Positions 8,677 through 63,209 of a stretch of DNA of 64,000 nucleotides are shown one piece after another. The DNA is from a virus (Duplodnaviria; Heunggongvirae; Uroviricota; Caudoviricetes), in IMG/VR virus record IMGVR_UViG_3300047323_000428, positions 21,208 through 85,207 of that record, one strand, 5' to 3'. Numbering within the stretch: the stretch's first letter is position 1; each line of letters opens with the position of its first letter. Under the pieces are notes generated by a model. The model did not search any database and had not been told where the DNA came from. It saw only the letters and a list, made by a program, of their open reading frames with translations. The translations under genes were made by a program, and so were the position numbers.

Positions 8677-8687
8677 TTTTGAGTGTT
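8670..8687 (-). promoter_or_regulatory. Degenerate PDM copy (TAGTCATTTTTGAGTGTT) overlapping the start codon of 8158-8676
   Basis: Two mismatches to the consensus. The intergenic gap here is only 18 nt. Confidence 0.45.
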
Positions 8688-10811: not shown

Positions 10812-10833
10812 AGGTTTCAATGGCTTAGTTGGA

Positions 10834-10851
10834 TAGTCAGTTTTGACTGTT
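10834..10851 (-). promoter_or_regulatory. PDM consensus copy (TAGTCAGTTTTGACTGTT) in a divergent intergenic region
   Basis: 22 nt upstream of the ParB-like ATG on the minus strand and 30 nt upstream of the plus-strand helicase ATG. Confidence 0.85.
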
Positions 10852-10880
10852 GGCGCTTATACTACGCCTTACACAACAGG

Positions 10881-12452
10881 ATGGCAACTCAGGACATGGC
10901 AACGATCACGCTGGCATACAACGCAACCACCGCGAAGCTCGTGGAAACCGACCGCGCGCTCAAGCTGGAGGTGCAAAAGCTCGTTTCCTACCGGGTGAGC
11001 GGCGCGGAGAACACGCTGCCCTTCAAAACCGGTGGCTGGGACGGCCGCAGCTCCTTCTTCGACTTTCGCAAGGGCACCTTCCCCGCCGGCTTCGTGCATT
11101 TCGTGGCAGCGGGCCTGCGTCGGGCCGGTCACACGGTGCGCTTCGTGGCAAAGGAAGCCCCGGAGCCGCTCGGACCGCTCAACCCCAAGATCGACAGCTT
11201 CCCGGAAGACGCGCGCTACGACTACCAGATGGAGACGGTCAACCGGCTCGTGAAACACCGCCAGATCATCGCCCAGCTCGCCACGGGCGCGGGCAAGAGC
11301 CGGGTCGCACGCCTTGCCTTCGCGCGTATCCGCCGGCCGACGCTTTTTCTCACCACGCGCTCGATCCTCATGTATCAGATGAAGGACGCGTTCGAAGAGT
11401 TGGGCGTGAAGTGCTCGGTGCTGGGCGACGGACAGTTCGGAACGGTCACAGTCGGCGCCGACGGTGAAGAACGACACTCGGTGAAGATGATGAGCGTTGG
11501 CATGGTTCAGACGCTTGTTTCGCGTCTTGCTGAACCGTGTCCGGACGATGACGTCGACAAGCAAAACGAGCAAGTGCGAATCCGCAACAAGACGATCGCG
11601 CTCTTGGAGAAGTTCGAGTTCGTGATCGGTGAGGAGGCGCACGAGGCGTCGGGCAACAGCTACTACGAGATCCTGCGCCACTGCAAGAACGCGCACTACC
11701 GGCTCGCACTGACAGCCACGCCCTTCATGAAGGACGATGAAGAGTCGAACATGCGCTTGATGGCCGCGTTCGGTCCGATCGGCATCAAGGTCAGCGAGAA
11801 GATGCTGATCGAGCGCGGCATCTACGCCCGCCCCTTCTTCAAATACGTGGCGCTCAAGACCAAGCCGCCCAAGCTCTTTCGGGGCACCACGTGGCAGGCC
11901 GCCTACCGCCTGGGGATTGTCGACAATGCCGAGCGCAATGCCCATATCGTCTTCGAGGCCCGCCGCGGCGTCGCATTGAAGCAGCCGGTGATGATCCTCG
12001 TGCAGCAGACACGCCACGGTGAGCTTTTGCGGGAGATGCTGGCTGCGAAGGGCGTGAAGGTGGAGTTCCTGCAGGGCGAGAACAACGCGAAGGAGCGCAA
12101 AGCGGCGCTCGGGCGTCTTCGGGAGCGGGAAACCGAGGTGCTGATCGGCACGACCATCATGGACGTTGGGGTCGACGTGCCGGCCATCGGGCTGGTGATC
12201 CTCGCCGGTGGTGGGAAGGCGCAGGTGGCGCTGCGTCAGCGGATCGGCCGCGGTGCGCGCGAGAAGAAGAAAGGCCCGAACTGCTTTTTCGTGGTCGACT
12301 TCGATGACCCCTGGAACAGCCACACGAAGGAGCACGCTCTGGCTCGCCGTGCGATCGTGGAGTCGACGCCGGGCTTCGTCGAAAACATCCTCCCGCCGGG
12401 CCGCGACTTCGATTTCGTGGGGCTGGGTTTTGCGACTCGCAAGGCAGCGTGA
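10881..12452 (+). CDS. SF2 DEAD/DEAH-box (type III restriction Res-like / UvsW-like) DNA helicase
   Basis: Walker A QLATGAGKS, DEAH-like VIGEEAHE, motif III LTATP and motif VI QRIGRGAR. ATG at 10881; the listed N-terminal extension overlaps the ParB gene. Confidence 0.75.
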   Translation: MATQDMATITLAYNATTAKLVETDRALKLEVQKLVSYRVSGAENTLPFKTGGWDGRSSFFDFRKGTFPAGFVHFVAAGLRRAGHTVRFVAKEAPEPLGPLNPKIDSFPEDARYDYQMETVNRLVKHRQIIAQLATGAGKSRVARLAFARIRRPTLFLTTRSILMYQMKDAFEELGVKCSVLGDGQFGTVTVGADGEERHSVKMMSVGMVQTLVSRLAEPCPDDDVDKQNEQVRIRNKTIALLEKFEFVIGEEAHEASGNSYYEILRHCKNAHYRLALTATPFMKDDEESNMRLMAAFGPIGIKVSEKMLIERGIYARPFFKYVALKTKPPKLFRGTTWQAAYRLGIVDNAERNAHIVFEARRGVALKQPVMILVQQTRHGELLREMLAAKGVKVEFLQGENNAKERKAALGRLRERETEVLIGTTIMDVGVDVPAIGLVILAGGGKAQVALRQRIGRGAREKKKGPNCFFVVDFDDPWNSHTKEHALARRAIVESTPGFVENILPPGRDFDFVGLGFATRKAA

Positions 12453-12493
12453 ATCGTGGTATTTTCACACTCACTATTGACTATGGAGCGCAA

Positions 12494-14412: not shown

Positions 14413-14445
14413 TAGTCAGTTTTGAGTGTTTCACGTGAAACACTC
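14413..14445 (-). promoter_or_regulatory. PDM variant (TAGTCAGTTTTGAGTGTT) fused to a 22-bp perfect palindrome GAGTGTTTCACGTGAAACACTC
   Basis: The palindrome spans 14424-14445 around a CACGTG core, 10 nt upstream of the 14402 start codon. An identical palindrome occurs at 15104-15125. Confidence 0.8.
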
Positions 14446-15075: not shown

Positions 15076-15103
15076 TCTGTGCGTCTCTGAGTGTTGAGAA
15101 AAT

Positions 15104-15138
15104 GAGTGTTTCACGTGAAACACTCATCATTGACTGTT
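15104..15138 (-). promoter_or_regulatory. Second copy of the palindrome GAGTGTTTCACGTGAAACACTC plus a half-PDM (CATCATTGACTGTT)
   Basis: Perfect 22-bp palindrome at 15104-15125, about 30 nt upstream of the 15075 start codon. Confidence 0.8.
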
Positions 15139-15143
15139 ACGCG

Positions 15144-15989
15144 TTACGCGTTAAACATCGCTTGCAGCTTTTGCGCTGCTTTCGATTCCGTAAACGTCAT
15201 TGCATCGTCTTTTTTCGACTTCGCAACGTTGCAGACATTCAGAAAGCGCATTGCTTGTCGCGTGCTGCTTGCTTGCGTGCTTGCGGTTGACGGTGCGCAA
15301 TCTTTGTATGCGCGCACCGCTTCGGTTTGCATCGCTTCGTCAAACACGATTGCACGCGAGAGCGCACGTTGTGAACCGCGGTTCGAGAGCGAATGCAGCG
15401 AAACAAGATTCTGCATGATCGAGCGCGTGTAACCGTCAAAAACCGAAGTCATACCGGTTGCGAGTGCGAAAAGCGACTTGCGGATTTTTTGCGCTGCGTA
15501 AATCGCAACGTAATCGTGCGCTTTGTCGTCTGCGATTGCGTAAGCGGTTGCAAGCGATTCAAAATCAACTTCGAGTTCTACGCACTTTTCAATTGCGATC
15601 AGCGCATTGCGACCGCTCAGCGCGTTGAGTTCTGCGAGCATGTTCTTTGCGAAGTTCGCAGACGGTGCGTTGTCAATGCGCACTTGAACCGATTCGAGCA
15701 AGAGCGCTTGCGCTGCTTCTGCTTTTGCGCGCAACTCTTCTGCGCTCAGCACAACCGGTTGCGCTTCGTCTGCTTGCGCTTCGTTCGCTTCGGTTTCGAC
15801 TGCAAGCGTTTCGACTGCTTGCGCTTCGTCTGCGCTGAGCGCTTCGTCTGCTTGCGCTGCGAGTTCAGCGTTTTGCGCTGCGATCATTGCTGCTTCTGCT
15901 TGCGCTGCTTTCTCTGCTTTCGTGAGTCGCTTCGTCATTTTCGTTTCTCGCTTAGTGTGTTGTTTTGTTTTCGTCGCTGCACCGTGCAT
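15144..15989 (-). CDS. Hypothetical protein (about 280 aa; Ala/Glu/Gln-rich coiled-coil N-terminal part and a C-terminal domain) in the compositional island
   Basis: First ATG at 15987-15989; an alternative ATG lies at 15938. Strong GCA/GAA/CAA/AAA codon bias unlike the surrounding genome. Confidence 0.5.
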   Translation of the reverse strand: MHGAATKTKQHTKRETKMTKRLTKAEKAAQAEAAMIAAQNAELAAQADEALSADEAQAVETLAVETEANEAQADEAQPVVLSAEELRAKAEAAQALLLESVQVRIDNAPSANFAKNMLAELNALSGRNALIAIEKCVELEVDFESLATAYAIADDKAHDYVAIYAAQKIRKSLFALATGMTSVFDGYTRSIMQNLVSLHSLSNRGSQRALSRAIVFDEAMQTEAVRAYKDCAPSTASTQASSTRQAMRFLNVCNVAKSKKDDAMTFTESKAAQKLQAMFNA

Positions 15990-19922: not shown

Positions 19923-20153
19923 CTACCAGGTGCCCATGTCCGCGTAGGCCGGCTCGGGTCTCAGGATGGGCACCTGGTAGTCCGACAACAGGCTATAGGC
20001 CACGTTGTCGACGAACTGGAAGCTCTCGCCGGGCAACAACTGCATCTGGGCGTAGATGCGCGCGGTTTGCATGTTGGGCGTGCGGCAGGTGTTCTCCAAC
20101 CACGCCCGGTAGCCGCCCTTCATGCTTCGGGCGATTTCGTCGCATTCGGTCAT
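19923..20153 (-). CDS. Hypothetical protein (76 aa; C-terminus ...ADMGTW)
   Basis: ORF coupled (ATGA) with the next gene. Confidence 0.45.
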   Translation of the reverse strand: MTECDEIARSMKGGYRAWLENTCRTPNMQTARIYAQMQLLPGESFQFVDNVAYSLLSDYQVPILRPEPAYADMGTW

Positions 20154-27638: not shown

Positions 27639-28283
27639 TCAGTGGAGTGCAGCGTGCGCTCGGGCGGCGCGGTCGTATCGGATGGCGGTCAGCGTGTCGC
27701 GCGTGGCGATGTCGGCAAGCGGGTCGGAAATCACCAGCGCGCCATCGGCGGGCCGCACCATCAGGTTCTTGGAGTGCAGATCCAGCCCCCAGCCGTCCTC
27801 GACGTTGCTGGCGAACTTGTGCAGATCGGCAAATGCCTCTTGTAGCGACTCGGGCAGCGCCTCATCCATCGACAGTTCTTGAAGGGCGAGCGTGAGCCCT
27901 TCGCGCCGCTTGTGAAAGCGCAGGTGCGTATTGGCATGGGTCGTCGCCTGCGTGCAGATACGGCGGGCCAGGGCGCGGTTCTCGCCACCCTTCGGCAGCG
28001 GCTCCAGCTTTTCGCACTCGAAGAGGTAGACGGCGTGACCGTCCACCTCGCCCACGTCGCCGTAGTTGTAGGAAACCTCAGTGAAGTGTCGGCCCTGGCA
28101 GCCGATCACCTGATCGGTGCCAAGCATGTAGGCGTATTGGTCGAGCGTGAGCTTCAAAACCGTGTCGCCATTGTCGAATACGGCGGAAAACGCTCCGCGC
28201 GCCATGATCTTCTTGCCGGCGATCGCCGGGTGCATCCTCGCCTTCTTGATTCCTGCGTCGCTCGTGCGCAAAGCCTTCCACAT
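27639..28283 (-). CDS. Protein-kinase-like fold protein (putative Ser/Thr kinase)
   Basis: Gly-rich loop-like segment ARGAFSAVFD, a VLKL segment (VAIK-like), a catalytic-loop-like segment GLDLHSKNLMV (D...N), and ISDP (DFG-like). ATG at 28281-28283 with a GGAGGTG ribosome-binding site (M5 of the listed ORF). Confidence 0.4.
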   Translation of the reverse strand: MWKALRTSDAGIKKARMHPAIAGKKIMARGAFSAVFDNGDTVLKLTLDQYAYMLGTDQVIGCQGRHFTEVSYNYGDVGEVDGHAVYLFECEKLEPLPKGGENRALARRICTQATTHANTHLRFHKRREGLTLALQELSMDEALPESLQEAFADLHKFASNVEDGWGLDLHSKNLMVRPADGALVISDPLADIATRDTLTAIRYDRAARAHAALH

Positions 28284-28310
28284 AAACACCTCCAAAACGT
28301 CTTCTTTCGA

Positions 28311-30417: not shown

Positions 30418-30986
30418 GCCGCCACCTTCAGCTTCTCAGTGAAGTCGGCCGGCAGCACCCACGTGCCGCGCTTCACGCCTTCGAAGAACGCGGCCATCAT
30501 GCGCTCCACGTCGTATTCCGCTGCGTGGGCAGCAGCAGCGTCGAATGGCACGTTCAGGGCGAAGCACAGTTCTTCCAGACGCGGTAGCTTTCCGTCCGGG
30601 CAGGCCCAGCGCGATTCCGAGCACGTGTCCCAGCCATCGACGTCGGGCAGCGTCATGCCGCACGCCTTGAACTCCTCGTAGAGAAAGCTCAGGTCGAAGA
30701 AGATGTTGTGGGCGATTACGAGGTCGCTCTTGGCAAAGCGGTCACGCACCTCGCCTGCGATATCGGCGAACTTCGGGCAGCCCACGAGGTCGCTGTAGGC
30801 GATGCCGTGAACTTCCTGCGCCTTCGCGGTAATCGGCCGCTCGGGATCCATGCGCTGGACGTATTTGTCGACCAGCTTGCGCGTGTGGAAGTCATACGTG
30901 AGCAAGGCGACTTCGATGATCTTGTCGCCCTTCTCGGCGTCGAGGCCGGTGGTTTCGGTGTCGAAACCGGTGACGAGGAGACTCAT
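30414..30986 (-). CDS. DnaQ-like DEDDh 3'-5' exonuclease
   Basis: Exo I GFDTETTG, Exo II AHNIFFDLSFL and Exo III HAAEYDVERM. Confidence 0.8.
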   Translation of the reverse strand: MSLLVTGFDTETTGLDAEKGDKIIEVALLTYDFHTRKLVDKYVQRMDPERPITAKAQEVHGIAYSDLVGCPKFADIAGEVRDRFAKSDLVIAHNIFFDLSFLYEEFKACGMTLPDVDGWDTCSESRWACPDGKLPRLEELCFALNVPFDAAAAHAAEYDVERMMAAFFEGVKRGTWVLPADFTEKLKVAA

Positions 30987-31372
30987 GCCGGCACCGCTCC
31001 CTTCGCCTTCAGTTCGGCTTCGAGGCGCTTGACGTAATCCTTCACGTCGCCCGGCACGAACTCAGGCTTCTTGCCGTAGTTGATGAGGTAATGGGCTTCA
31101 GGCAGCTCGCCGAGATTGACGAGATCCTGCAACCACAGCTCGGCCGTCATGAACGGGGTGATCGCCTTGAGCTCCTCGTTGAATGCGGCACGCACGCTCG
31201 GCTCGAATGCCTTCTTTTCGACGCGGCCCATATCCACGAGCATTTCAGCGCGCGGCAGTTGACGTTGAATGTAGGCTTCGGTCCGGTAGGCCGCCTTCAC
31301 GAGTGCTGCCAGGTCGTCGAATTGCACCACCAGGGCGCGCACTTCTTTGGTTTCGATCAGCAACGTTGCCAT
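30983..31372 (-). CDS. Hypothetical protein (129 aa)
   Basis: ATG ORF. Confidence 0.5.
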   Translation of the reverse strand: MATLLIETKEVRALVVQFDDLAALVKAAYRTEAYIQRQLPRAEMLVDMGRVEKKAFEPSVRAAFNEELKAITPFMTAELWLQDLVNLGELPEAHYLINYGKKPEFVPGDVKDYVKRLEAELKAKGAVPA

Positions 31373-31417
31373 CGATCTCTCCTCTAACGAATTGTTGAAC
31401 GCTTATTCTAGCGTCAG

Positions 31418-31435
31418 ACAGTCAGTTTTGACTGT
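31418..31435 (-). promoter_or_regulatory. PDM copy (CAGTCAGTTTTGACTGTT)
   Basis: 45 nt upstream of the 31372 start. Confidence 0.8.
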
Positions 31436-31474
31436 TGACGCTATGATAAGCACTCAGCTTAGGGGTTGCAACGA

Positions 31475-33558: not shown

Positions 33559-33972
33559 TCAGGGGTTTTGTTGGGAATCGTCGCTCCCGCTCATGCTTGC
33601 CAGATACTTGCCGTGATCGAACGCCTTCTTCATGGCGCGCAACTGGGCGAGCGTGGGCTTGTCCTTCGAGTCGTGCCAGGAGATGGCCGACAGCCACGAA
33701 CGCAGGCGAGCCTCATCGCGCGAATCCTTCACCTTCTGCGTGATCGGGTCGATACAACCAGAGGCGGCGCCGATAAAGTAGCCCGTCTCCCGGTTGGCGC
33801 GATGTTCGTTTCCCTTCGCATCTTTCAGGACGAACTGCGTGCGCGTCAGGCGATCGATCGTGAACAGCACATAACCGTGGTGGCGCGTTCGGTGCGCGAC
33901 TTCCTGACCGGGTCGAAGCGACTTCAGCCACTCGGCGCGTTCTTCTCTTTCATCCATCACCAGCTCCCCCAT
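33559..33972 (-). CDS. Hypothetical protein (137 aa)
   Basis: The ATG lies 16 nt inside the end of the upstream gene. Confidence 0.5.
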   Translation of the reverse strand: MGELVMDEREERAEWLKSLRPGQEVAHRTRHHGYVLFTIDRLTRTQFVLKDAKGNEHRANRETGYFIGAASGCIDPITQKVKDSRDEARLRSWLSAISWHDSKDKPTLAQLRAMKKAFDHGKYLASMSGSDDSQQNP

Positions 33973-37178: not shown

Positions 37179-37616
37179 TCAAACCTCCTTGTAGCCTTTG
37201 GGCGCCAACTTCTCACCGACGCCGTTGAAAAAATCCCGCGCCTCTCGCGCGGTGTCGAAATTCATGTAACGCGGGGTGCCGTGCGCCTCGCCCATCAACA
37301 CGCGGTCCTCGCCCACAGTCCACGTCACGCGCAGCAAGCTCGCATTCCGAAAACCGGGCGCGCGGCTGAACACCCGCTTCAATTCGAGCGGCGCATCGGG
37401 GCACAACGCCTGCGCCTCCGATATCAATTCGATGAAATCCTTCCTGAGCAGCCCCGACACGGTCATAAACAGCACATCTACGCCCGTCGAGAATTGGTGC
37501 GCGCTAATGCGCCCCTGTGCGACCGAGTGCGTGAGCCATTCGAGCGTCTCGAACGCTTTTCGATCGACTTCTTCCTGCAGTGTTGGCAACTCACTTCTGA
37601 CTGGCGACGAGCCCAT
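37179..37616 (-). CDS. Hypothetical protein (145 aa)
   Basis: ATG ORF. Confidence 0.5.
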   Translation of the reverse strand: MGSSPVRSELPTLQEEVDRKAFETLEWLTHSVAQGRISAHQFSTGVDVLFMTVSGLLRKDFIELISEAQALCPDAPLELKRVFSRAPGFRNASLLRVTWTVGEDRVLMGEAHGTPRYMNFDTAREARDFFNGVGEKLAPKGYKEV

Positions 37617-37677
37617 ATTTTCGTTCTCTCGCTAAATCGCGCAACGTTGCGCACAAACAGAATCTTATAGTTTGCAG

Positions 37678-37711
37678 CTAGGGAACACAATCACTTTTGA
37701 CTGTTCCCTAG
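37678..37711 (-). promoter_or_regulatory. PDM copy (AATCACTTTTGACTGTT) embedded in a 10-bp perfect inverted repeat CTAGGGAACA ... TGTTCCCTAG
   Basis: The inverted-repeat arms are at 37678-37687 and 37702-37711, about 70 nt upstream of the 37616 start. The same architecture occurs at 63162-63198. Confidence 0.8.
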
Positions 37712-37726
37712 CGCAAACCCAACACT

Positions 37727-39749: not shown

Positions 39750-39825
39750 GTATTCCTCAACGTGGAGTCTGAAAAGCCCCGATCTGTGCGACCGGGGCGG
39801 TGCTGCTTAACTGATACGTGAATTA

Positions 39826-39843
39826 TAGTCAGTTTTGACTATT
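39826..39843 (-). promoter_or_regulatory. PDM copy (TAGTCAGTTTTGACTATT), with TATAAT immediately downstream on the minus strand
   Basis: On the minus strand it reads AATAGTCAAAACTGACTATAAT. Lies 77 nt upstream of thyX. Confidence 0.8.
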
Positions 39844-41169: not shown

Positions 41170-41187
41170 TAGTCACTTTTGACTGTT
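41170..41187 (-). promoter_or_regulatory. PDM copy (TAGTCACTTTTGACTGTT)
   Basis: Immediately after the nrdA stop and 42 nt upstream of the 41127 start. Confidence 0.8.
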
Positions 41188-44058: not shown

Positions 44059-44101
44059 GTCAAAACTGACTACGTGCAGATTATAGTCAGTTTTGACTGT
44101 T
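44059..44101. promoter_or_regulatory. Inverted pair of PDM copies: GTCAAAACTGACTA (44059-44072, opposite orientation) and TAGTCAGTTTTGACTGTT (44084-44101)
   Basis: This is the only copy in the window in the reverse orientation. The two copies together form a 43-bp palindromic arrangement between the RuvC-like gene and gene 43542-44045. Confidence 0.75.
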
Positions 44102-49504: not shown

Positions 49505-50040
49505 GCTCTGCCGCTCTTGATTGCGTTAATCAAGCCGCGCGTTACTCCATAAATTGCAGCGATGGCATCTGACGTCTCGCCCTTCGCTACCCTCTCTCGA
49601 ATCTCTAGCACCTGTGCCGGTGTCAGCTTCACTGCACGATTGCGCTCACCTCGATTGCTCCTGCCGTGCGCGATCTTGTCCTCCTCGTTCCCGCTGCGCG
49701 TGTCCCATCGCAAGTTGCCGAGAACGTTGTTAGTCGGATTCCCGTCGCGGTGGCAGCCGTGCCACTCAAGGCAGTCGCCAGGACGTGGCCCCACAAACGC
49801 TTCCAGCACCAGCGTGTGAACCTGATAGGTCTTACTTCTTCCCTCTTTGGCAAGAGAGACGGTCAAGTGACCGGACTCTGCCGGGCCCGGCGCCAAGATT
49901 CGCTCTGGCTGCTCGCGGTAACGGTCGCCAACCGGATGACGAATCAGCAGCATGCGGCGCAGGCTCTTGACTCGACCGAGATTGGAGACTTGATAAAGCC
50001 CCTCATATCCCGCTATGTCTTTCCACTTTTCGCCACTCAT
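49489..50040 (-). CDS. HNH homing endonuclease (NUMOD4 plus HNH)
   Basis: IAGYEGLYQVSNLGRVKS (NUMOD4) and an HNH core ...WHGCHRDGNPTNN. It stands alone between the SleB-like gene and sbcD. Confidence 0.8.
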   Translation of the reverse strand: MSGEKWKDIAGYEGLYQVSNLGRVKSLRRMLLIRHPVGDRYREQPERILAPGPAESGHLTVSLAKEGRSKTYQVHTLVLEAFVGPRPGDCLEWHGCHRDGNPTNNVLGNLRWDTRSGNEEDKIAHGRSNRGERNRAVKLTPAQVLEIRERVAKGETSDAIAAIYGVTRGLINAIKSGRAWGWL

Positions 50041-50050
50041 TTTTGACTGT
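50034..50050 (-). promoter_or_regulatory. Degenerate PDM-like word (ACTCATTTTTGACTGTC) overlapping the HNH start codon
   Basis: The intergenic gap is 14 nt. The motif appears to be interrupted or abutted by the HNH gene. Confidence 0.4.
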
Positions 50051-50054
50051 CAGT

Positions 50055-50456
50055 TCACTTATAGAAGACGTGGTTTCCGGCCGCGTATACGCGCTCCATC
50101 CCACGATCCCAAACCGGATGCACTTCGCGCGTGTGGTAATACGTCGCTCCGTGCGTGAAATCATGGGCTTTTTTGCTCAACGTCACATACGCCACCGCTC
50201 GCGCTGTGCGCCACGCATTCTCGTCACGAGGCAGCGCGCGATTGGTAATCTTCCAACGCCCTTTTTGCCGAATCACAAGCCTGTTGGCCCACGAAAACTG
50301 CTTGGGCTTAAACACGACCTCGCACACTTTTGCGGGATCGCCCTCTGCTCGATTCATCGTTGTCATTGCGACGGCTAACTGCCCCTGAATGGGTTCCCCG
50401 CGTGCTTCGTGGAAGATATTCAGCGCCAGGCATAGAAAAGCACTCGCCAAGATCAT
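50055..50456 (-). CDS. SleB/CwlJ-family cell-wall hydrolase
   Basis: Signal-anchor-like N-terminus plus a FHEARGE motif and a conserved C-terminal region. Confidence 0.65.
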   Translation of the reverse strand: MILASAFLCLALNIFHEARGEPIQGQLAVAMTTMNRAEGDPAKVCEVVFKPKQFSWANRLVIRQKGRWKITNRALPRDENAWRTARAVAYVTLSKKAHDFTHGATYYHTREVHPVWDRGMERVYAAGNHVFYK

Positions 50457-50498
50457 TCAACTCCTCGCTACTCGACTTAAAATTCATTATACACCGAG

Positions 50499-53323: not shown

Positions 53324-53341
53324 TACTCAATTTTGACTGTT
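53324..53341 (-). promoter_or_regulatory. PDM copy (TACTCAATTTTGACTGTT) directly abutting the RecA-like ATG
   Basis: Zero spacing to the start codon. It also overlaps the last codon of the FEN gene. Confidence 0.7.
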
Positions 53342-56541: not shown

Positions 56542-56559
56542 TACTCAATTTTGACTGTT
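56542..56559 (-). promoter_or_regulatory. PDM copy (TACTCAATTTTGACTGTT)
   Basis: Immediately after the DnaE stop and 70 nt upstream of the 56470 start. Confidence 0.75.
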
Positions 56560-56565
56560 GCCTAG

Positions 56566-59500
56566 TTACGACAGAATCTCCGCCGTCTTCTCGAACACCG
56601 CCGCGAGCACGTCAGCCTTCGCCGGGTCAAAGAGGACTTGCTGCGCGTTGATACCGCACACAACGCTGGCGTCCAGCGTCTTGTCGAAGATCACCTTGCC
56701 AGCAAGCTCGGCCGTGCCGCCCTTGATGCCCGGCACAAAGTGCTTGATCGTGGCCGAGCCGAGCGCGACGATCACCGCCGGCTTAATGAGCTCCAACTCG
56801 CGCTGCAGGAAGCCCTTGCAGTTGTTGATCTGGCCGTTGGAGAGGAACTTGTCGTTCTTCTTCGCCTTGACGAGCGACGTGTAGTAGCCCTCTGCCGGAT
56901 TCAGCCCCGCCGCCTTGATCGCTTCCTTGATGAAATCCGCGGCGTCGCCTTCGAGCATCTTGTCGGCCTTCTCCTCCTGCCAGCTTGGGCAGTCGGACAC
57001 CACCATGAACTTCACCGTGTGCTTGGCGCGCACCGTCGGGTGAGGCTGTCCCGCGAGGTCGCAGCTTTCGCAGCCCTTGTATTCCTGCACGAGCGAAATC
57101 ACCTTCGCCCGCAAGAACTTCTCCTTCAGGTCGGTCGTGCGATCGGCCTTCACCGCGTCGATAATCAGCCCGCCCATGAGTTCGGTCTGGTCACGCCGGC
57201 GGTCCAGGTGTCGCGCGGGCAACGATCCGGGTTTAATCGGCACGAGCGCACCGACCTTGTCCAGCACATCACGCACCTTCGAATTGACTTTCGAGCCCTT
57301 CGCCTCTGTGATCTTGAGGAAGTGCTCCTCGTCACGGAAGGCGCCGCCCTCGAGATTGCGCAGCTCCACCATCCGCTTGGCCGTGTTCTCGGAGATCCCC
57401 TTCACTGCCGAGAATGGCGCGAGCAGGTGGTTGTCGTCGGGGATGGTGAAGCGCTCGCGCGAGAGGTTGATATCGGGCGGCAGCACCTCGATCCCGTATT
57501 CACGCGCTTCCTCGACGAGCTTGGGCAACTTGTCCTCGTCCACGATCGACATACAGGCAGCGAAGTATTCCGCCGGGTAGCGCACCCGCACCCAGAGCGA
57601 CCAGTAGCTAATGATCGAATACTCGACCGCGTGGCTCTTGTTAAAACCGTAGCCTGCAAAGGCCTCGATCTTGTCGAAGATGCGACCCGCGACCTCTTCG
57701 TTCATGCCGGACGTGGAGTGACAGCCATCGACCCACTTCTGTCGCATTTCGGCCATCTTGTCCTTGTCCTTCTTGCCCATCGCTTTCCGCAGGTGGTCCG
57801 CTTCCGCCTTCGTGAAACCTGCGAGGTCGACCGCGACCTGCATGACCTGTTCCTGGTAGACGATGACGCCATAGGTGTCCTTGAGCGCCGCCTCCATGTT
57901 CGGGTGGTCGTAGCTGATCGACTTCACGCCCTGCTTGATCTGGATGAAGTCGTCCATCAGGCCCGAGTCCATTGGGCCCGGTCGATAGAGCGCGGTGGCC
58001 GCTGTCACGTCATCGAACGTAAGCGGCCCACCCATCGCCAGATTCCTGAGCAGCGCCTTCATGCCGCCTGAGTCGAACTGGAACACACCCGTCGTGTCGC
58101 CCGCGCCAAATGCCTGCATGACGTCCGATTCACCCAGCGGAATGTCGAGGTAGTTGACCTTCACCCCGTGCCGCTCTTCGATGTAGCTCTTGGCGATCTC
58201 CAGCACATCGAGCGTGGAGAGCCCCAGAATGTCCATCTTGACCAAGCCCCAGTCCTCGACGACCCGCTTGTCCCAGTTCACCACCGGCGACTCGCCACGC
58301 GTTTCAACGACCGCACGGTTCACAAGCGGCTCGCCCGCGACCACGATACCCGCTGCGTGCTGGCCGAAGTTGCGCATGGCGCCTTCGAGCTTCAGGGCGT
58401 GGCCCCACACCTCCGGGTGCTCGTCGCGGAACTTCTCCAGCTCGGGCACGGCTTTGGCCGATTCCGTGAGCGTGAGGGAATTGCCGTGCTCTTTGGGCAC
58501 GAGCTTGGTAGCGGTCAGTTCGAGCGGCTGCATGCCATGCACGCGGCCGGTGTCGCGTAGCGCGGAGGCAGAAGCGAGCGTCGAATAGTTGGAGATGCCG
58601 GCGACGCGATCCTTGCCGTATTTGGCGGTCAGGTATTCGATCACCAGATGGCGCTTGCTTGACATGAAATCGAGGTCGGCGTCGGGCAAGTCCAGACGCT
58701 CGGGGTTGATGAAGCGCTCGAACAGGAGATTGAACCGGATTGGATCCACATCGGTGATGCCAAGCAGGTAAGCGACGAGCGAGCCGCCCACCGATCCGCG
58801 GCCTGGGCCGACGATGATGCCGTTTTCCTTCGCCCACATCACGAGGTCTTCCACGAGCAGGAAGTAGCCCGCGAAGCCCATTTTCTTGAGCACCGACAAC
58901 TCGTATTGGAGTCGCTCCTTGTAGACGGGCATGTCGGCCGCCGTCGGCATGTAACCGAGCACGGCCACCGAGAAGCGCCGCTTCCAGCCTTCGAGACACT
59001 TCTTGCCGAGCGCCATGAACTCGTTTTCGGCCATCTGCGGCAGCGACACCGGCTGCTTCTTGAACTCGTAGCCACAGGCGGCCGCGATCTTCTCGACGTT
59101 CTGCAGGCCGGCGAGCCAGAGCTTCGGTTCGTTCACGCCATAGAACTTGACCGCGCGAGCGTGCGCGGCCTTCATCTTGTCGACCAGGTGCTTCGGTTCG
59201 TGAAAGCCGAAGTCCTTCACGTGCTGAATCGAGCGGAACTTCGTGTCCATCTTGTCGCCGTCGGCGATCACCTTCAGCACCGCGAGCGTGTCAGCGTCCT
59301 CGTTCTCCCGATAGTAGGTCGGGAACGTGATGATCGGCTGAATGTCGAGGATGCGCGCAATCGTCAGCGCCTTTGCGTTGAGCGTGTCGTAGAGCGGCGT
59401 GTCGATCGGCACGAGCTCCACGAAGAAGTCGTCGGCGAAGAAGTCCTTGAGCTTTCGCGCGTGCGCTTCGGCTTGCGGGTGATGGAACAGGCCGTTGTAG

Positions 59501-59931
59501 TCGCCGGTCGTGACGACCACGCCCTCGAGCTCCAGCACGTCGTTCAGGCCCACGCGCGAGACATAGTAGAAATACTCGGGCGAATTGGCCTTCGACAGCA
59601 GCTTGATAAGGCTCGACACCCCGCGCTCGTCCTTCGCGTAGACCTTGAGCGTCACCATCGGGTTCGGCTTGTCTGCGTGCGTGTCGCCCTTCTTGGGCTT
59701 GCGGTGCGTCGGATCGTCGACCACGCGCAACTCGCAGCCGATGATCGCCTTGATGCCGACTTTCTTCGCACGATTGGCGAAGTCGACCATCGCGTGCAGG
59801 CTCATCGCGTCGGTGAGCGCAACCGACTCGTAGCCCAGCTCCTTCGCCTTTGTGACGAGTTGGTCGACCTGAAGCATCGAGCGGCCGATGGAGAAGTCGC
59901 TCCTTACGCCGAGCGCGTGCCCGAGATTCAT
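56566..59931 (-). CDS. dnaE: DnaE-type (Pol III alpha-like, PHP domain) DNA polymerase with a C-terminal UDG-like (family 4/5 fold) domain
   Basis: PHP domain at the N-terminus, polymerase core, and a (HhH)2 motif GISENTAKRMVELR. The last ~200 aa align with the family-4 uracil-DNA glycosylase fold (…CKGFLQRELELIKPAVIVALGSATIKHF…), but the GEAPG and GrPFvG motifs are replaced by SDCPSW and DKMLEG. Confidence 0.8.
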   Translation of the reverse strand: MNLGHALGVRSDFSIGRSMLQVDQLVTKAKELGYESVALTDAMSLHAMVDFANRAKKVGIKAIIGCELRVVDDPTHRKPKKGDTHADKPNPMVTLKVYAKDERGVSSLIKLLSKANSPEYFYYVSRVGLNDVLELEGVVVTTGDYNGLFHHPQAEAHARKLKDFFADDFFVELVPIDTPLYDTLNAKALTIARILDIQPIITFPTYYRENEDADTLAVLKVIADGDKMDTKFRSIQHVKDFGFHEPKHLVDKMKAAHARAVKFYGVNEPKLWLAGLQNVEKIAAACGYEFKKQPVSLPQMAENEFMALGKKCLEGWKRRFSVAVLGYMPTAADMPVYKERLQYELSVLKKMGFAGYFLLVEDLVMWAKENGIIVGPGRGSVGGSLVAYLLGITDVDPIRFNLLFERFINPERLDLPDADLDFMSSKRHLVIEYLTAKYGKDRVAGISNYSTLASASALRDTGRVHGMQPLELTATKLVPKEHGNSLTLTESAKAVPELEKFRDEHPEVWGHALKLEGAMRNFGQHAAGIVVAGEPLVNRAVVETRGESPVVNWDKRVVEDWGLVKMDILGLSTLDVLEIAKSYIEERHGVKVNYLDIPLGESDVMQAFGAGDTTGVFQFDSGGMKALLRNLAMGGPLTFDDVTAATALYRPGPMDSGLMDDFIQIKQGVKSISYDHPNMEAALKDTYGVIVYQEQVMQVAVDLAGFTKAEADHLRKAMGKKDKDKMAEMRQKWVDGCHSTSGMNEEVAGRIFDKIEAFAGYGFNKSHAVEYSIISYWSLWVRVRYPAEYFAACMSIVDEDKLPKLVEEAREYGIEVLPPDINLSRERFTIPDDNHLLAPFSAVKGISENTAKRMVELRNLEGGAFRDEEHFLKITEAKGSKVNSKVRDVLDKVGALVPIKPGSLPARHLDRRRDQTELMGGLIIDAVKADRTTDLKEKFLRAKVISLVQEYKGCESCDLAGQPHPTVRAKHTVKFMVVSDCPSWQEEKADKMLEGDAADFIKEAIKAAGLNPAEGYYTSLVKAKKNDKFLSNGQINNCKGFLQRELELIKPAVIVALGSATIKHFVPGIKGGTAELAGKVIFDKTLDASVVCGINAQQVLFDPAKADVLAAVFEKTAEILS

Positions 59932-61197: not shown

Positions 61198-61845
61198 TTA
61201 CAGTGTGTCGATCAATTCACGCACTTCCCTGCCGGCTGCCGTGATCTCTTTGGCGCGTTCGGGCATGGTCATGCGCAAAAACTTGCAGATGAAGGAGACG
61301 TTCACGCCCGCGAAGCTCCTCATGTTCTCGCCGACGCTGCGTGCGTATTCGGCGTGAGCCTGATGCTTGGCGATTTCCTCGAGCAGCGCCTTCGGCGGCT
61401 GTGCGATCCACTCGACGATGAGCCCGGCGATCGGCGACAGGCGCTCGACGACCCGCTCCATTGCGTCGGCGGCCTCGCGCTGCTCCATCCACTGCTCCGG
61501 CGTGATCGCCTGGCAGGCAATGCGCTCGACCGCGTGCATGTCGTCATCGGTGGTCAGCTCCTCGAAGCTGCGCACGCCGTTGGTGATGCGCTCCTCCTCG
61601 ACGTCGCCCGCAACACGGTTCAGCTTGTTGTAGGCGCTGCGCGCGAAGTAGGTATTGAATTCGAACCCTTTTGTCGGGTCGAATTTCTGGTGGGCTTCGA
61701 GAAAGGCGATGCGAACATCGCCAAACACGTCGTCATAGTCCAATGCGGCACCCATCCCCTGGAGTCGTCCGTAGCACTTGCGTGCGATCGTGTGGACGAA
61801 CCCCAGGTTGCCCGCATAGCACTCGGAAACGTCGGCGCTATACAT
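61198..61845 (-). CDS. Phage-encoded sigma-70-family protein (recognisable region 2 only)
   Basis: YDDVFGDVRIAFLEAHQKFDPTKGFEFNTYFARSAYNKL aligns with sigma70 region 2.1-2.3 ([37 protein letters not shown]). No obvious region 4 is present. Confidence 0.6.
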   Translation of the reverse strand: MYSADVSECYAGNLGFVHTIARKCYGRLQGMGAALDYDDVFGDVRIAFLEAHQKFDPTKGFEFNTYFARSAYNKLNRVAGDVEEERITNGVRSFEELTTDDDMHAVERIACQAITPEQWMEQREAADAMERVVERLSPIAGLIVEWIAQPPKALLEEIAKHQAHAEYARSVGENMRSFAGVNVSFICKFLRMTMPERAKEITAAGREVRELIDTL

Positions 61846-61857
61846 TTGGCTCCTCTC

Positions 61858-61875
61858 TAGTCAACTTTGACTGTT
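61858..61875 (-). promoter_or_regulatory. PDM copy (TAGTCAACTTTGACTGTT), 13 nt upstream of the sigma-factor ATG
   Basis: On the minus strand it reads AACAGTCAAAGTTGACTA, followed by GAGAGGAGCCAA and then ATG. Only the ribosome-binding site fits between the motif and the start codon. Confidence 0.8.
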
Positions 61876-61882
61876 ACGCCGA

Positions 61883-63085
61883 TTAGCCGAAGATGCGCTG
61901 AGCCAAGCCGTCGACAACCTCCCGGTCGACTTTGGAGAGCTTGTTGATGAAGGAGAGTTGAATCCCCTGGCGCCACGAACCGCGCTTCACGCCGATCTTT
62001 GCCGCGTAAATCAGCGTGCGAGGCGAAATGACGTCGCTGATCTTGGCGCCGTCATACGATTCACGAACAAGCGCGGCGAAGTCCACGAGCTTGTCGGCGT
62101 CGTCAGCGCGCAGCCCGCAGCGCTTTTGCAGAATCAGGCTCTCGAACTTCTTCGCCATGTATTGCTTGTGAACCACCATGCCGAAGCGGTCGTAGTTGGC
62201 GCTGTTCTGAAGCGACGTGCCCTGATACAGACCGGTTTCGTCGCCCGAGCCGTTCGTGTTGCCCGTTGCGGCGAAGCGGAAGTTCGGGTGCGGCTTGATG
62301 ATGCGGTTTTCGGCGTCCGCTTCCTTGATGACGAGCGGCTTGCCTTCGAGCACGGCCTGATAGACCGACAGCACGCTCGGCAGCGCAAAGTCGTATTCGT
62401 CAGCGGCGTAGACCCAGCCGTTTTTCATGGCGAGCGGCAACGGTCCCAGCTCGAACTCGGTTTGGCCGTTCTTCACAACCCACTGGCCCACGATGTGGCT
62501 TTCTTCCGTGTTGACCGTATGCTGCACGCGGATCATGGCGCGGCCGGTGCGAGCGCAGATTTGCTCGTAAAGCTCCGACTTGCCCGAGCCCTTGTGGCCC
62601 CACACGTAAGTCGGAATGTTGAGCTCCAGCGCCAAGATGACGTTCTTGAGTTCGTCCACGTCGTAGACATAATCGTCCGAGACGGTCGGCACCAGGTCCG
62701 GGTTTTCCGGGTTGGTGATGACGCTGATGGGGATCGCTTCGCCCTTAGCCGAGAGCGCAGCCTTAATCTTGCCCAGGTTGAAGGTTTCGTGGAAGGCGGC
62801 GCGGGTTGGCGTGCCCTTCGGAATCAGTGCCGACACGCTTGCGAGCGCAGCACCCGTGCCCGCCATCTCGACGGCGGCCGGCGCAGGCGCTTCGGCTTCA
62901 GCGGCCTTTGCCGCGCGCTTCTTGTCCAGTTGCTCTTGCGCCAGCGCCGAGAGAATCGACGCACCGGGGAACTTCGTCTGATACTCGCTGATGGACAGTT
63001 CCGGGTGGTCTTGCTTGAGGTGCGACTGGATCACGTGGACTTGCGCGCCGCAGATTTTGCATTCGATCTTGTTCGTGTCGGCCAT
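61883..63085 (-). CDS. MoxR-family AAA+ ATPase (CobS/CbbQ/NorQ-like) with an N-terminal zinc-finger-like segment
   Basis: Walker A WGHKGSGKSE and Walker B AADEYDF. The N-terminus carries CKICGAQVHVIQSHLKQDH. Confidence 0.75.
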   Translation of the reverse strand: MADTNKIECKICGAQVHVIQSHLKQDHPELSISEYQTKFPGASILSALAQEQLDKKRAAKAAEAEAPAPAAVEMAGTGAALASVSALIPKGTPTRAAFHETFNLGKIKAALSAKGEAIPISVITNPENPDLVPTVSDDYVYDVDELKNVILALELNIPTYVWGHKGSGKSELYEQICARTGRAMIRVQHTVNTEESHIVGQWVVKNGQTEFELGPLPLAMKNGWVYAADEYDFALPSVLSVYQAVLEGKPLVIKEADAENRIIKPHPNFRFAATGNTNGSGDETGLYQGTSLQNSANYDRFGMVVHKQYMAKKFESLILQKRCGLRADDADKLVDFAALVRESYDGAKISDVISPRTLIYAAKIGVKRGSWRQGIQLSFINKLSKVDREVVDGLAQRIFG

Positions 63086-63161
63086 TTTTCTTCTCCAAGA
63101 GTGTGTGAGTCGTTACTGATTGCAGCAACGTTGCTGCGATAAGTGAATGATAAAGATGAGC

Positions 63162-63198
63162 GGTAGGGAACGCTAGTCACTTTTGACTGTTCCCTACC
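63162..63198 (-). promoter_or_regulatory. PDM copy (TAGTCACTTTTGACTGTT) embedded in a 10-bp perfect inverted repeat GGTAGGGAAC ... GTTCCCTACC
   Basis: Same architecture as 37678-37711. Lies between the vWA gene and the MoxR gene start. Confidence 0.8.
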
Positions 63199-63209
63199 GA
63201 AAACAACAA

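What the first reader, a model, noticed from the sequence alone, without database searches (positions are those of the whole stretch)
37678..37711. Two motif copies are nested inside longer perfect inverted repeats with an AGGGAAC...GTTCCCT core (also at 63162-63198)
At 37678-37711 the motif sits inside CTAGGGAACA ... TGTTCCCTAG, and at 63162-63198 inside GGTAGGGAAC ... GTTCCCTACC. Each has 10-bp perfect arms that overlap the motif's TGTT end. An extra layer of dyad symmetry suggests these two promoters are additionally controlled by an operator. The copy at 63162 sits upstream of the MoxR ATPase gene.
Basis: seen in the sequence. Interest (0 to 1): 0.5.

Follow-up and report, generated by a model that had tools for sequence, protein, structure and literature searches.

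The report
Conserved hairpins enclosing phage promoter motif
Two (in fact three) copies of this phage's repeated promoter-like motif sit at the tip of long stem-loops that related phages keep intact through compensatory mutations, which suggests a structural signal between operons, most likely in RNA, rather than a plain repressor-binding site.

Summary
Both inverted repeats are at the stated coordinates and are longer than reported: 11-bp arms at 63161-63199, and 17/18-nt arms at 37669-37719. Only 2 of 24 motif copies have such arms (random-position p about 0.001 each).

The window is a roughly 111-kb Burkholderiales phage related to the SSU5/nickie/RHEph10 group. Genes run on the minus strand. 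The motif reads AACAGTCAAAAnTGACTA in gene direction.

The two sites are paralogous modules of about 100 nt: arm, motif, arm, conserved TAnnAT hexamer, palindrome GC(A)GCAACGTTGC(T)GC, SD, ATG. Orthologous modules occur in 9 (site 1) and 7-8 (site 2) related genomes.

- Arm sequences change but stay complementary. Six of 9 outer pairs show changes on both sides.
- Left-side insertions of 8-10 nt are tolerated.
- One lineage replaced the arms by extending the motif's own dyad.
- A third nested copy (31396-31456) has unrelated arms that also covary.
- The hairpins have 16-26 bp, lack a U-tract, and are more stable on the sense strand in 19 of 23 cases.

A fixed-geometry dsDNA operator therefore fits poorly. 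I favour a sense-strand RNA stem-loop in read-through transcripts, acting in processing, 3'-end stability or insulation, and overlapping a separately controlled promoter. The function is untested. The downstream palindrome is the better operator candidate.

The parts
37669..37719 (-). Site 1 full hairpin-forming inverted repeat. It contains the reported 37678-37711 core. The arms are GTTTGCAGCTAGGGAACA / TGTTCCCTAGCGCAAAC on the + strand.
   Evidence: Sequence. Sense-strand RNA fold gives 22 pairs and -29.6 kcal/mol. The whole spacer folds at -41.8 with z = -4.6. Orthologues in 8 other genomes keep a hairpin with compensatory arm changes.
37688..37705 (-). Motif copy at site 1, AACAGTCAAAAGTGATTG. 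The TGATTG variant replaces the consensus TGACTA.
   Evidence: The TGATTG variant is kept in the eight site-1 orthologues that retain this motif type; L263, whose motif has diverged (…GTTACTTG), is the exception.
37662..37690 (-). Candidate sigma-70-type promoter at site 1: -35 TTGTGT (37685-37690), 17-bp spacer that contains the right arm, -10 TAAGAT (37662-37667).
   Evidence: TTGTnT-17 bp-TA(A)nAT with unchanged spacing in all 9 site-1 sequences (read). T, A and T of the hexamer are invariant columns of alignment A1. The strict consensus scan does not call it, so this is an inference.
37639..37652 (.). Second palindrome GCGCAACGTTGCGC, starting 2-4 nt after the predicted start of the candidate promoter.
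   Evidence: Conserved in the site-1 orthologues, with only the central bases varying (GCGCAGCGTTGCGC, GCGCAGTGTTGCGC).
37179..37616 (-). Downstream gene, 145 aa, no family assignment.
   Evidence: 12 homologues, all in related phage contigs.
63161..63199 (-). Site 2 hairpin-forming inverted repeat with 11-bp perfect arms CGGTAGGGAAC / GTTCCCTACCG. The motif dyad forms the apex, with a 3-nt bulge.
   Evidence: Sense-strand RNA fold of the 39-nt element is -23.2 kcal/mol. Orthologues L001, L002, L003, L004, L005, L006, L007 and L246 are shown.
63174..63191 (-). Motif copy at site 2, AACAGTCAAAAGTGACTA.
63147..63152 (-). Conserved TATCAT hexamer (TAnnAT) at site 2, aligned with the site-1 -10 hexamer. 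No TTG -35 lies upstream of it.
   Evidence: Invariant T70, A71 and T75 of alignment A1.
63122..63137 (.). Second palindrome GCAGCAACGTTGCTGC.
   Evidence: I7. Identical in L001-L004 and L246. Its outer pairs covary with the site-1 version (CG/GC, AU/CG).
61883..63085 (-). CobS/MoxR-type AAA+ gene served by site 2. It is followed by a sigma-70-family gene (61198-61845) that has its own plain motif copy at 61858-61875.
31396..31456 (-). Third motif copy (31419-31436) nested in a long hairpin with unrelated arms: TAGCGTCA/TGACGCTA plus a lower stem.
   Evidence: (I2). Six genomes show compensatory changes: TAGCGTAACA/TGTTACGCTA, TTGCGTCA/TGACGCAA, TTGCGCCA/TGGCGCAA, TAGATACA/TGTATCTA.
31360..31369 (.). 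GCAACGTTGC core directly after the start codon of gene 30983-31372, 49 nt after the third nested motif.
   Evidence: The first 23 nt of the gene are identical in 6 genomes while later codons diverge.

Best explanation
The arms form the lower stem of a long stem-loop (16-26 bp, about 40-60 nt). Its apex is the partial palindrome of the motif itself (AGTCA-N4-TGACT). I propose that it folds in sense-strand RNA. That requires transcripts that read through from the upstream operon (thyX-mazG-kinase-like for site 1, cobT for site 2), because transcripts starting at or after the motif lack the left arm. The stem-loop starts 11-13 nt after the upstream stop codon (the motif follows at 18-21 nt) and has no U-tract. 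The likely role is therefore an intercistronic processing, 3'-end-protecting or insulating element, of the RNase III-site or protective stem-loop kind. It would uncouple the upstream operon from a downstream unit with its own start signals. Those signals are the motif, a conserved TAnnAT hexamer (with a TTG -35 at site 1), and a GC-rich palindrome placed to be the 5'-terminal stem-loop or a +1 operator.

Shown here: the repeats; their conservation and covariation; tolerance of asymmetric insertions; the sense-strand bias; and the absence of terminator or sigma-70 consensus features.

Inferred: that the fold acts in RNA, that it is processed or protects a 3' end, and that the motif is a promoter.
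For: - **Conservation with compensation.** In alignment A1 (11 sequences), 87% of cells are paired, against 23-46% when partners are slid. Six of 9 outer pairs have changes on both sides. 0 of 500 shuffles reach the observed values.
- **More orthologues.** Added site-1 and site-3 orthologues all keep perfect or near-perfect arms of different sequence. One shows a compensated 1-bp deletion on each side (GGAA/TTCC in L258).
- **Asymmetry tolerated.** L071 and L254 carry 8-10 nt between the left arm and the motif.
- **Arms replaceable.** L246 has no left arm but carries a 10-bp AAAACAGTCA/TGACTGTTTT stem. L006 and L007 have unrelated 8-bp arms. Phage nickie has an 8-bp hairpin in the same cobT-cobS spacer.
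- **Third site.** A third nested copy in the same genome has different arms that also covary.
- **Fold stability.** Folds are -22 to -34 kcal/mol in most orthologues. The spacer z-scores are -3.7 and -4.6.
- **Strand bias.** The sense strand is more stable than the antisense strand in 19 of 23 hairpins. For the first 20 the mean difference is -3.2 kcal/mol, Wilcoxon p = 0.004.
- **No competing signal.** There is no U-tract terminator and no full sigma-70 consensus at either site. Exact TAGGGAAC occurs nowhere else in the window.
Against: - No transcript data exist, so read-through across these spacers is assumed.
- The strand bias rests on a few G.U pairs shared by descent. Site 2 is mixed: L002, L003 and L004 have an A.C mismatch in the sense strand.
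- The inner core GGGAA/TTCCC is conserved in sequence across many genomes. CCC persists even where the left arm is lost (L246).
- The arms of sites 1 and 2 resemble each other more within a genome than between genomes. Both facts hint at sequence-specific recognition or at gene conversion.
- L006 and L007 stems (8 bp) are too short for RNase III.
- It is unclear why the promoter-like motif should sit inside the loop rather than after the hairpin.
Confidence: 0.4

Rival explanations
1. Operator: a dimeric or tetrameric regulator binds the two GGGAAC/GTTCCC half-sites on duplex DNA and occludes the motif or promoter.
For: Sites 1 and 2 share exact TAGGGAAC half-sites. The GGGAA/TTCCC core recurs in most relatives, and CCC is invariant in A1. 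The arms of the two sites resemble each other within each genome.
Against: The outer arm positions change with compensation rather than being conserved. Insertions of 8-10 nt on one side only occur in L071 and L254. The left arm is lost in L246. L006, L007 and the third site have unrelated arms. The half-site centres are about 27 bp apart (2.5 helical turns), which is atypical for a dimer. No extra half-sites occur elsewhere. No DNA-binding protein was identified next to the sites.
Confidence: 0.15
2. DNA-level switch: under negative supercoiling the quasi-palindrome extrudes as a cruciform. This hides or exposes the motif and the overlapping -35, making these promoters sensitive to supercoiling.
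For: The repeats are long quasi-palindromes centred on an A-rich 4-nt centre. Some orthologues are perfect over 14-15 bp (L076, L266). From memory, not checked here: cruciform-regulated promoters and N4 hairpin promoters are precedents.
Against: Bulges, 3x3 internal loops and one-sided inserts of 8-10 nt strongly disfavour extrusion but are harmless in RNA. The sense/antisense asymmetry is not expected for a cruciform, where both strands must fold. The phage encodes SbcCD and a RuvC-like resolvase, which would attack extruded structures.
Confidence: 0.12
3. Mobile or recombining regulatory cassette without a role for pairing as such. The symmetry would be kept by gene conversion between paralogous cassettes and by template-switch correction of quasi-palindromes, as a by-product of extending the motif's own dyad.
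For: Sites 1 and 2 are paralogues with an identical 20-mer. Within-genome similarity of the arms fits conversion. The cassette is absent where an extra gene is inserted (L259-L261), as seen at PeSL-flanked indels (PMC4122927).
Against: Hairpins persist at the same three positions in genomes whose proteins are down to about 48-56% identical, with entirely different arm sequences. That needs selection on pairing and is not explained by conversion alone.
Confidence: 0.1
4. Alternative promoter readings. Either an N4-like hairpin-form promoter used by a special polymerase at three early sites, or an ECF-type promoter with GGAAC as -35 and GTT as -10.
For: There are exactly three nested copies per genome in four genomes, and site 2 precedes the sigma gene. 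GGGAAC-N16/17-GTT resembles the ECF consensus (from memory).
Against: The stems have 16-26 bp with 4-nt loops, whereas N4 has 5-7 bp and 3 nt (from memory). No virion RNA polymerase was seen in the window, although the structural region lies outside it. The GTT is not conserved (TTT, ATT or TGT in relatives) and the spacing changes by 8-10 nt in L071 and L254.
Confidence: 0.05

Closest known systems
PeSL (promoter-early stem-loop) cassettes of T4-type phages (PMC2839356, PMC4122927)
   Same: Both are small repeated intergenic cassettes that combine a stem-loop with a sigma-70-like promoter, then SD and start codon. Both are present in several copies per genome. The stem sequence varies between phage pairs. 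Both are associated with gene gain and loss; here the module is missing where an extra gene sits in L259-L261.
   Different: In PeSLs the stem-loop lies just upstream of the -35. Here the stem encloses a separate 18-nt phage-specific motif and the -35, and its right arm lies in the promoter spacer. There are only 2-3 copies per genome. The stems are much longer. A second conserved palindrome follows.
RNase III processing sites of T7-group phages (own knowledge, not checked in a paper here)
   Same: Both are intergenic imperfect hairpins of about 50-60 nt with upper stem, internal loop and lower stem, on the transcribed strand. Both lack a U-tract and sit close to phage promoters. The site-3 fold (9 bp, 3x3 loop, 14-15 bp) has this shape.
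   Different: In T7 the promoter precedes the site, so all transcripts carry it. Here the promoter-like motif is inside the loop. Cleavage is untested. Some orthologues have only 8-10 bp.
Dyad-symmetric operators overlapping promoters
   Same: Both have inverted half-sites flanking or overlapping promoter elements. The GGGAA/TTCCC core is conserved.
   Different: The outer half-site positions covary instead of being conserved. The spacing is not fixed. The centres are about 27 bp apart.
N4 early hairpin promoters (own knowledge)
   Same: In both, a promoter element is presented in a hairpin, with three sites per genome.
   Different: Stem and loop sizes differ. Here the same motif also works as 20 or more plain copies. 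No virion RNA polymerase is known for this phage group.

Membership tests
Dyad-symmetric DNA operator | Half-site sequence conserved across orthologous sites | tested here: not met
   Only the GGGAA/TTCCC core is kept. Six of 9 outer pairs change on both sides. L006 and L007 have unrelated arms.
Dyad-symmetric DNA operator | Fixed spacing and a common symmetry axis of the half-sites | tested here: not met
   The core spacing is 16 versus 17 bp at the two sites. One-sided inserts of 8-10 nt occur in L071 and L254. The left arm is lost in L246.
Dyad-symmetric DNA operator | A cognate DNA-binding protein | tested here: inconclusive
   No HTH or other DNA-binding family was found in the neighbouring genes. 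Many ORFs have no assignment.
Intrinsic (Rho-independent) terminator | G+C-rich stem-loop followed directly by a U-tract | tested here: not met
   The stem is present but no T-run follows on either strand. The scans call nothing at the hairpins. Terminator-like sites are at chance level over 24-64 kb.
Conserved structured single-strand element (RNA hairpin) | Base pairs maintained by compensatory substitutions across relatives | tested here: met
   (0 of 500 shuffles; slid controls 23-46% against 87% paired). add sites and genomes.
Conserved structured single-strand element (RNA hairpin) | Strand specificity (G.U tolerated on the functional strand) | tested here: inconclusive
   The sense strand is more stable in 19 of 23 hairpins, p = 0.004 for the first 20. 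The cases are phylogenetically dependent and site 2 is mixed.
RNase III processing site | About 20 bp or more of imperfect duplex on a transcript, cleaved by RNase III | not testable with these tools
   The duplex length is met in most orthologues (16-26 bp) but not in L006 and L007 (8-10 bp). Cleavage and transcription through the site are unknown.
PeSL-type stem-loop/promoter cassette | Stem-loop adjoining a sigma-70-like -35/-10 pair with about 17-bp spacing, then SD and ATG, repeated in the genome | tested here: inconclusive
   Site 1 has TTGTnT-17-TA(A)nAT in 9 genomes. Site 2 has only the TAnnAT hexamer. The strict scan finds no promoter. The stem overlaps the promoter instead of preceding it.
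Known RNA families (Rfam 15) | Match at gathering score | tested here: not met
   0 matches in the whole window. No tRNA or tmRNA.
N4-type hairpin promoter | 5-7-bp stem with 3-nt loop, recognised by a virion RNA polymerase | tested here: not met
   The stems have 16-26 bp and the loop 4 nt. The polymerase could not be checked, because the structural genes lie outside the window.

The most novel reading that the evidence does not exclude
The three nested copies per genome could be structure-dependent start or switch signals. In this reading the promoter motif is presented at the tip of an extruded or transcribed hairpin and is read differently from the 20 or more plain copies. One example would be an entry-phase promoter class that bootstraps the phage sigma gene downstream of site 2. 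That would be a second, independent case of hairpin-presented promoters outside the N4 group.
Probability: 0.06. Interest if true: 0.8.

Novelty: new variant of a known kind. Interest (0 to 1): 0.4.

Why it matters
The result defines a conserved, three-member regulatory cassette in a clade of roughly 110-kb Burkholderiales phages that has no close match in the phage collection searched and is related to the SSU5/nickie/RHEph10 group. It separates what is structural (the arms) from what is sequence-specific (the motif, the TAnnAT hexamer and the GCAACGTTGC palindrome). This gives concrete, cheap experiments on how a one-strand, promoter-dense phage genome uncouples neighbouring operons. It also warns against reading every dyad around a promoter as an operator. 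It is not a new principle. Composite stem-loop/promoter cassettes and intercistronic hairpins are already known in T4- and T7-type phages.

Tried and rejected
- **Chance symmetry.** Rejected by shuffles, a random-position control and conservation.
- **Intrinsic terminator, either strand.** No U-tract.
- **Full sigma-70 promoter at the motif.** There is no -35 or -10 information outside the 18-19-nt motif, and the scans are at chance level.
- **ECF-type GGAAC-N17-GTT promoter.** The GTT and the spacing are not conserved.
- **Anti-SD switch**, with the right arm pairing to the SD when the left arm is absent. No consistent alternative fold appears in six sequences.
- **Known RNA family or tRNA-like element.** None found.
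- **The inner motif stem as an RNA hairpin.** Variants G4->C and C15->G are not compensatory. Both give the same half-site ACTCA, which fits recognition of duplex DNA.
- **Stoperator or repressor reading of the motif.** No lysogeny genes turned up in about 50 ORFs scanned. This is not excluded, because relatives include phage-plasmids.
- **A wasted scan.** The 14-base viral-contig scan for the plain motif returned mostly chance hits.
- **Literature.** Searches on the relatives gave nothing on these motifs. The P1 late-promoter consensus could not be retrieved.
- **Phage GenBank collection.** No close relative; the best DnaE match is 45% identical.

Full report
**What the window is.** The 64-kb window is phage DNA of about 60% G+C. 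It encodes:
- portal and large terminase;
- RtcB, ThyX, and both ribonucleotide reductase subunits;
- SbcC- and SbcD-like proteins, a RuvC-like resolvase, RecA and a flap endonuclease;
- a DnaE-type polymerase with a C-terminal UDG domain;
- a divergent sigma-70-family protein;
- CobS-like (AAA_5 + CbbQ_C) and CobT/VWA proteins.

Codon-position G+C shows that nearly all genes lie on the minus strand. The nearest deposited phages share only about 42-47% protein identity: Rhizobium RHEph10 and RHph_X66, Stenotrophomonas BUCTxx99, Pseudomonas nickie, and the SSU5 phage-plasmids. Closer relatives exist only as metagenomic viral contigs and in a Paraburkholderia MAG (81% CobS identity). The host is therefore probably a member of the Burkholderiales. 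The source contig is 111,080 bp long.

**The motif.** There are 24 copies within three mismatches on the gene strand. Only copies that are themselves palindromic also match the other strand.
- The information is confined to 18-19 nt. No -35 or -10 signal lies outside it.
- The motif lies -2 to about 25 nt after the upstream stop codon in most cases, and 0-90 nt before the next start codon.
- Its core is a dyad, AGTCA-N4-TGACT. The recurrent variants G4->C and C15->G are not compensatory. Both create the same half-site ACTCA. This argues for recognition of duplex DNA by something with two-fold symmetry, not for an RNA stem.
- Relatives keep the motif, and more distant ones have cognate versions such as AAGTAAGCnnTTACTATAA.
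- That it is a promoter, perhaps for the phage sigma factor, is a reasonable inference. It is not shown.

**The observation.**
- AGGGAAC-N(10-24)-GTTCCCT occurs twice, against 0.01 expected by chance.
- Site 2 pairs over 11 bp (63161-63199). Site 1 extends to 17/18-nt arms with one bulge (37669-37719).
- For each of the 24 motif copies I measured the best enclosing repeat. Only these two reach 11 bp, and 0.13% of 3000 random positions do so.
- A third copy at 31419-31436 has an 8-bp perfect arm inside a 21-nt, 81% repeat (31396-31456).

**The two sites are one module, duplicated.** In gene direction both read: left arm, motif, right arm, A/T-rich stretch, palindrome, 20-35 nt with the SD, then ATG. 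They align over about 100 nt and share the 20-mer TAGGGAACAGTCAAAAGTGA.
- **A TAnnAT hexamer.** It is TAAGAT at 37662-37667 and TATCAT at 63147-63152. Its T, A and T are invariant columns of the alignment.
- **A palindrome with a GCAACGTTGC core.** It is GCGCAACGTTGCGC at 37639-37652 and GCAGCAACGTTGCTGC at 63122-63137.

Exact GCAACGTTGC occurs four times in the window. Three of these lie 40-50 nt downstream of the three nested motif copies. The third lies directly after the start codon of gene 30983-31372, where the first 23 nt are identical in six genomes. A pattern scan for the motif followed 35-50 nt later by GCAACGTTGC found related genomes only, with two or three such sites each. Allowing for variant bases, these are the same three positions in each genome.

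**Comparative test of the arms.** I collected the orthologous spacers.
- Site 2 lies upstream of the cobS homologue in L001, L002, L003 (partial), L004, L005, L006, L007 and L246.
- Site 1 lies upstream of the 145-aa homologue in L070, L071, L079, L254, L256, L258, L263 and L265.
- Site 3 is present in L072, L073, L076, L265 and L266.

Every one except L259-L261 has a hairpin at that place. In L259-L261 an extra gene replaces the module. The arm sequence is free while the pairing is kept:
- Site 2: GGTAGGGAAC/GTTCCCTACC, GCTCGGGAAC/GTTCCCGAGC, CCGCTTGAGAAC/ATTCCCGAGCGG, GGGATAG/CTATCCC plus GCGACC/GGTCGC, CAGGGCGC/GCGCCCTG, ATTTGGAG/CTCCAAAT.
- Site 1: CTAGGGAACA, TGCTTGGGAAC, TTGCTCGGG, CGTCAGGGAA, TGCTCGGGGA, CGTCAGGAA (one base lost on each side), GCGGTAGGGAA and AGCTAGGGAA, each with its complement.

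On an 11-sequence alignment, 87% of cells are paired, against 23-46% for slid partners. Six of 9 outer pairs have changes on both sides, and no shuffle out of 500 reaches the observed values. Three further facts bear on the mechanism.
- L071 and L254 carry 8-10 extra bases between the left arm and the motif.
- L246 has lost the left arm but has extended the motif's own dyad to a 10-bp stem.
- Site 3 has unrelated arms, which covary in the same way (TAGCGTCA, TAGCGTAACA, TTGCGTCA, TTGCGCCA, TAGATACA).

Phage nickie also has an 8-bp hairpin in its cobT-cobS spacer. BUCTxx99 has no spacer there.

**What this implies.** A protein that reads two half-sites on duplex DNA would need conserved half-sites at a fixed distance. 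Neither condition holds, and the half-site centres are about 27 bp apart. The data fit a folded single strand.
- The folds comprise 16-26 bp, with the motif dyad at the apex. Most orthologues fold at -22 to -34 kcal/mol. The spacer z-scores are -3.7 and -4.6.
- The sense strand folds better than the antisense strand in 19 of 23 cases. The mean difference is -3.2 kcal/mol and p = 0.004 for the first 20, because most non-Watson-Crick pairs are G.U in the sense strand.
- This, together with the asymmetric inserts and internal loops, favours RNA (or the same strand as ssDNA) over a cruciform.
- The bias is not phylogenetically independent. Site 2 is mixed, with a shared A.C mismatch in L002, L003 and L004.

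**How it most likely works.** A transcript that starts at or after the motif lacks the left arm. The full hairpin can therefore form only in RNA that reads through from the upstream operon. Each of the three hairpins follows a short operon headed by a plain motif copy or by cobT. There is no U-tract, so it is not an intrinsic terminator. I therefore propose an intercistronic stem-loop that is processed, protects the upstream 3' end, or insulates. The site-3 fold, with a 9-bp lower stem, a 3x3 loop and a 14-15-bp upper stem, has the shape of T7 RNase III sites (own knowledge). It would separate the upstream operon from a unit with its own control.

At site 1, the eight genomes that retain this motif type carry the variant TGATTG (L263 reads TTACTTG), and all nine genomes thereby have TTGTnT exactly 17 bp upstream of TA(A)nAT. 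This is a candidate sigma-70-type promoter whose spacer is the right arm. Its predicted start lies 2-4 nt before the GC-rich palindrome. The palindrome would then be a 5'-terminal stem-loop or a +1 operator. Its stem covaries between sites 1 and 2, while the central bases vary in L005, L071, L263 and L265. Site 2 has the hexamer but no TTG. These promoter assignments are inferences, and the strict scan does not call them. I put about 0.4 on the RNA stem-loop model.

**What speaks for the rival readings.** The GGGAA/TTCCC core is conserved in sequence, and CCC survives even without a partner in L246. The arms of sites 1 and 2 are more alike within a genome than between genomes. This may reflect a factor that reads the base of the stem, or gene conversion between the paralogous cassettes. 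Exact TAGGGAAC occurs nowhere else in the window. A cruciform switch, a pure recombination cassette, an N4-like hairpin promoter and an ECF-type GGAAC...GTT promoter were all considered. They rank lower for the reasons given under the rival explanations.

**Comparison with known systems.** The closest described kind is the PeSL cassette of T4-type phages. This is a small repeated stem-loop plus early promoter, SD and start codon, with stems that differ between phage pairs, and it is linked to gene gain and loss (PMC2839356; PMC4122927). Here the stem encloses a phage-specific motif and overlaps the promoter instead of preceding it. The stems are longer, there are only three copies, and a second palindrome follows. 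No Rfam family matches. I class it as a new variant of a known kind. It is of moderate interest, mainly as a clean, testable case in a phage clade with no close match in the phage collection searched.

Noticed in passing
window 31396-31456 (motif 31419-31436), upstream of gene 30983-31372: A third motif copy is nested in a long hairpin (26 pairs, -33.4 kcal/mol) whose arms are unrelated to GGGAAC. The arms covary in six genomes. A sigma-70-like TTGCAA-17-TATCAT (31471-31443, minus strand) ends in its left arm.
   Followed up: yes
window 37639-37652, 63122-63137, 31360-31369: A GCAACGTTGC-core palindrome follows all three nested motif copies by 40-50 nt. The fourth exact copy in the window (15223-15232) lies inside an ORF. 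At 31360 the palindrome directly follows the start codon, and the first 23 nt of that gene are identical in six genomes.
   Followed up: partly
window 37662-37690 (minus strand): TTGTGT-17 bp-TAAGAT is kept with identical spacing in nine genomes. The TTG comes from the TGATTG motif variant, which is specific to site 1 (L263 has a diverged motif but keeps TTGTGT).
   Followed up: partly
window, all motif copies (e.g. 8670-8687, 14413-14430, 53324-53341, 56542-56559, 50034-50051): The motif variants G4->C and C15->G both produce the half-site ACTCA. This symmetric degeneracy suggests that a two-fold symmetric factor binds the motif on duplex DNA.
   Followed up: partly
window 61845, 2856, 50456-50488, 14402, 10820 region (starts after motifs 61858, 2869, 50499, 14413, 10834): In five copies the start codon lies 10-13 nt after the motif end. 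This is about where a start site would fall if the terminal TA of the motif were the first bases of a -10 element, so the mRNAs could be leaderless or have very short leaders. The RecA-like gene (53323) starts directly at the motif end.
   Followed up: no
window 44059-44097: A perfect 14-bp inverted repeat is formed by a motif copy and an inverted partial copy 11 nt away (GTCAAAACTGACTA / TAGTCAGTTTTGAC).
   Followed up: no
window 14424-14445 and 15102-15127: There are two copies of the perfect palindrome (A)TGAGTGTTTCACGTGAAACACTC(AT). Each overlaps an AACACTC-variant motif, in the only low-G+C stretch of the window (52% at 14-16 kb).
   Followed up: no
window 39760-39800 (after motif 39826-39843, upstream of thyX): A G+C-rich hairpin (GCCCCG...CGGGGC) sits in the thyX leader. 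L070, L071 and L170 keep it with different loop and stem lengths. Similar hairpins follow the motif at 41170 and 56542.
   Followed up: partly
window 19923-19980: A 15-bp perfect inverted repeat, CTACCAGGTGCCCAT / ATGGGCACCTGGTAG, has a 28-nt spacer. It is the longest perfect inverted repeat in the window that is unrelated to the motif.
   Followed up: no
window 56566-59931: The DnaE-type polymerase III alpha carries a C-terminal uracil-DNA glycosylase superfamily domain (residues 972-1070).
   Followed up: no
window 27639-28295 and 33559-33972: Two weak family hits. The first is to the PHROG of the T7 gp0.7-type kinase, annotated as regulating RNase III and RNase E (E = 8e-7). The second is to Phage_ProQ_C_like (22 bits, below the cut-off of 27). 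Both would bear on RNA-level control if real.
   Followed up: no
window 10620-12452 (+) versus 10869-12335 (-): A 610-aa plus-strand ORF with high third-position G+C overlaps a 488-aa minus-strand ORF. A short plus-strand gene block (about 10.6-13.5 kb), with a plus-strand motif-like copy at 12466-12483, may interrupt the otherwise one-strand layout.
   Followed up: no
L259-L261 (loci): In one lineage the site-1 module is absent. An extra 216-aa gene abuts the 140-aa homologue instead, so there is gene turnover exactly at the cassette.
   Followed up: partly
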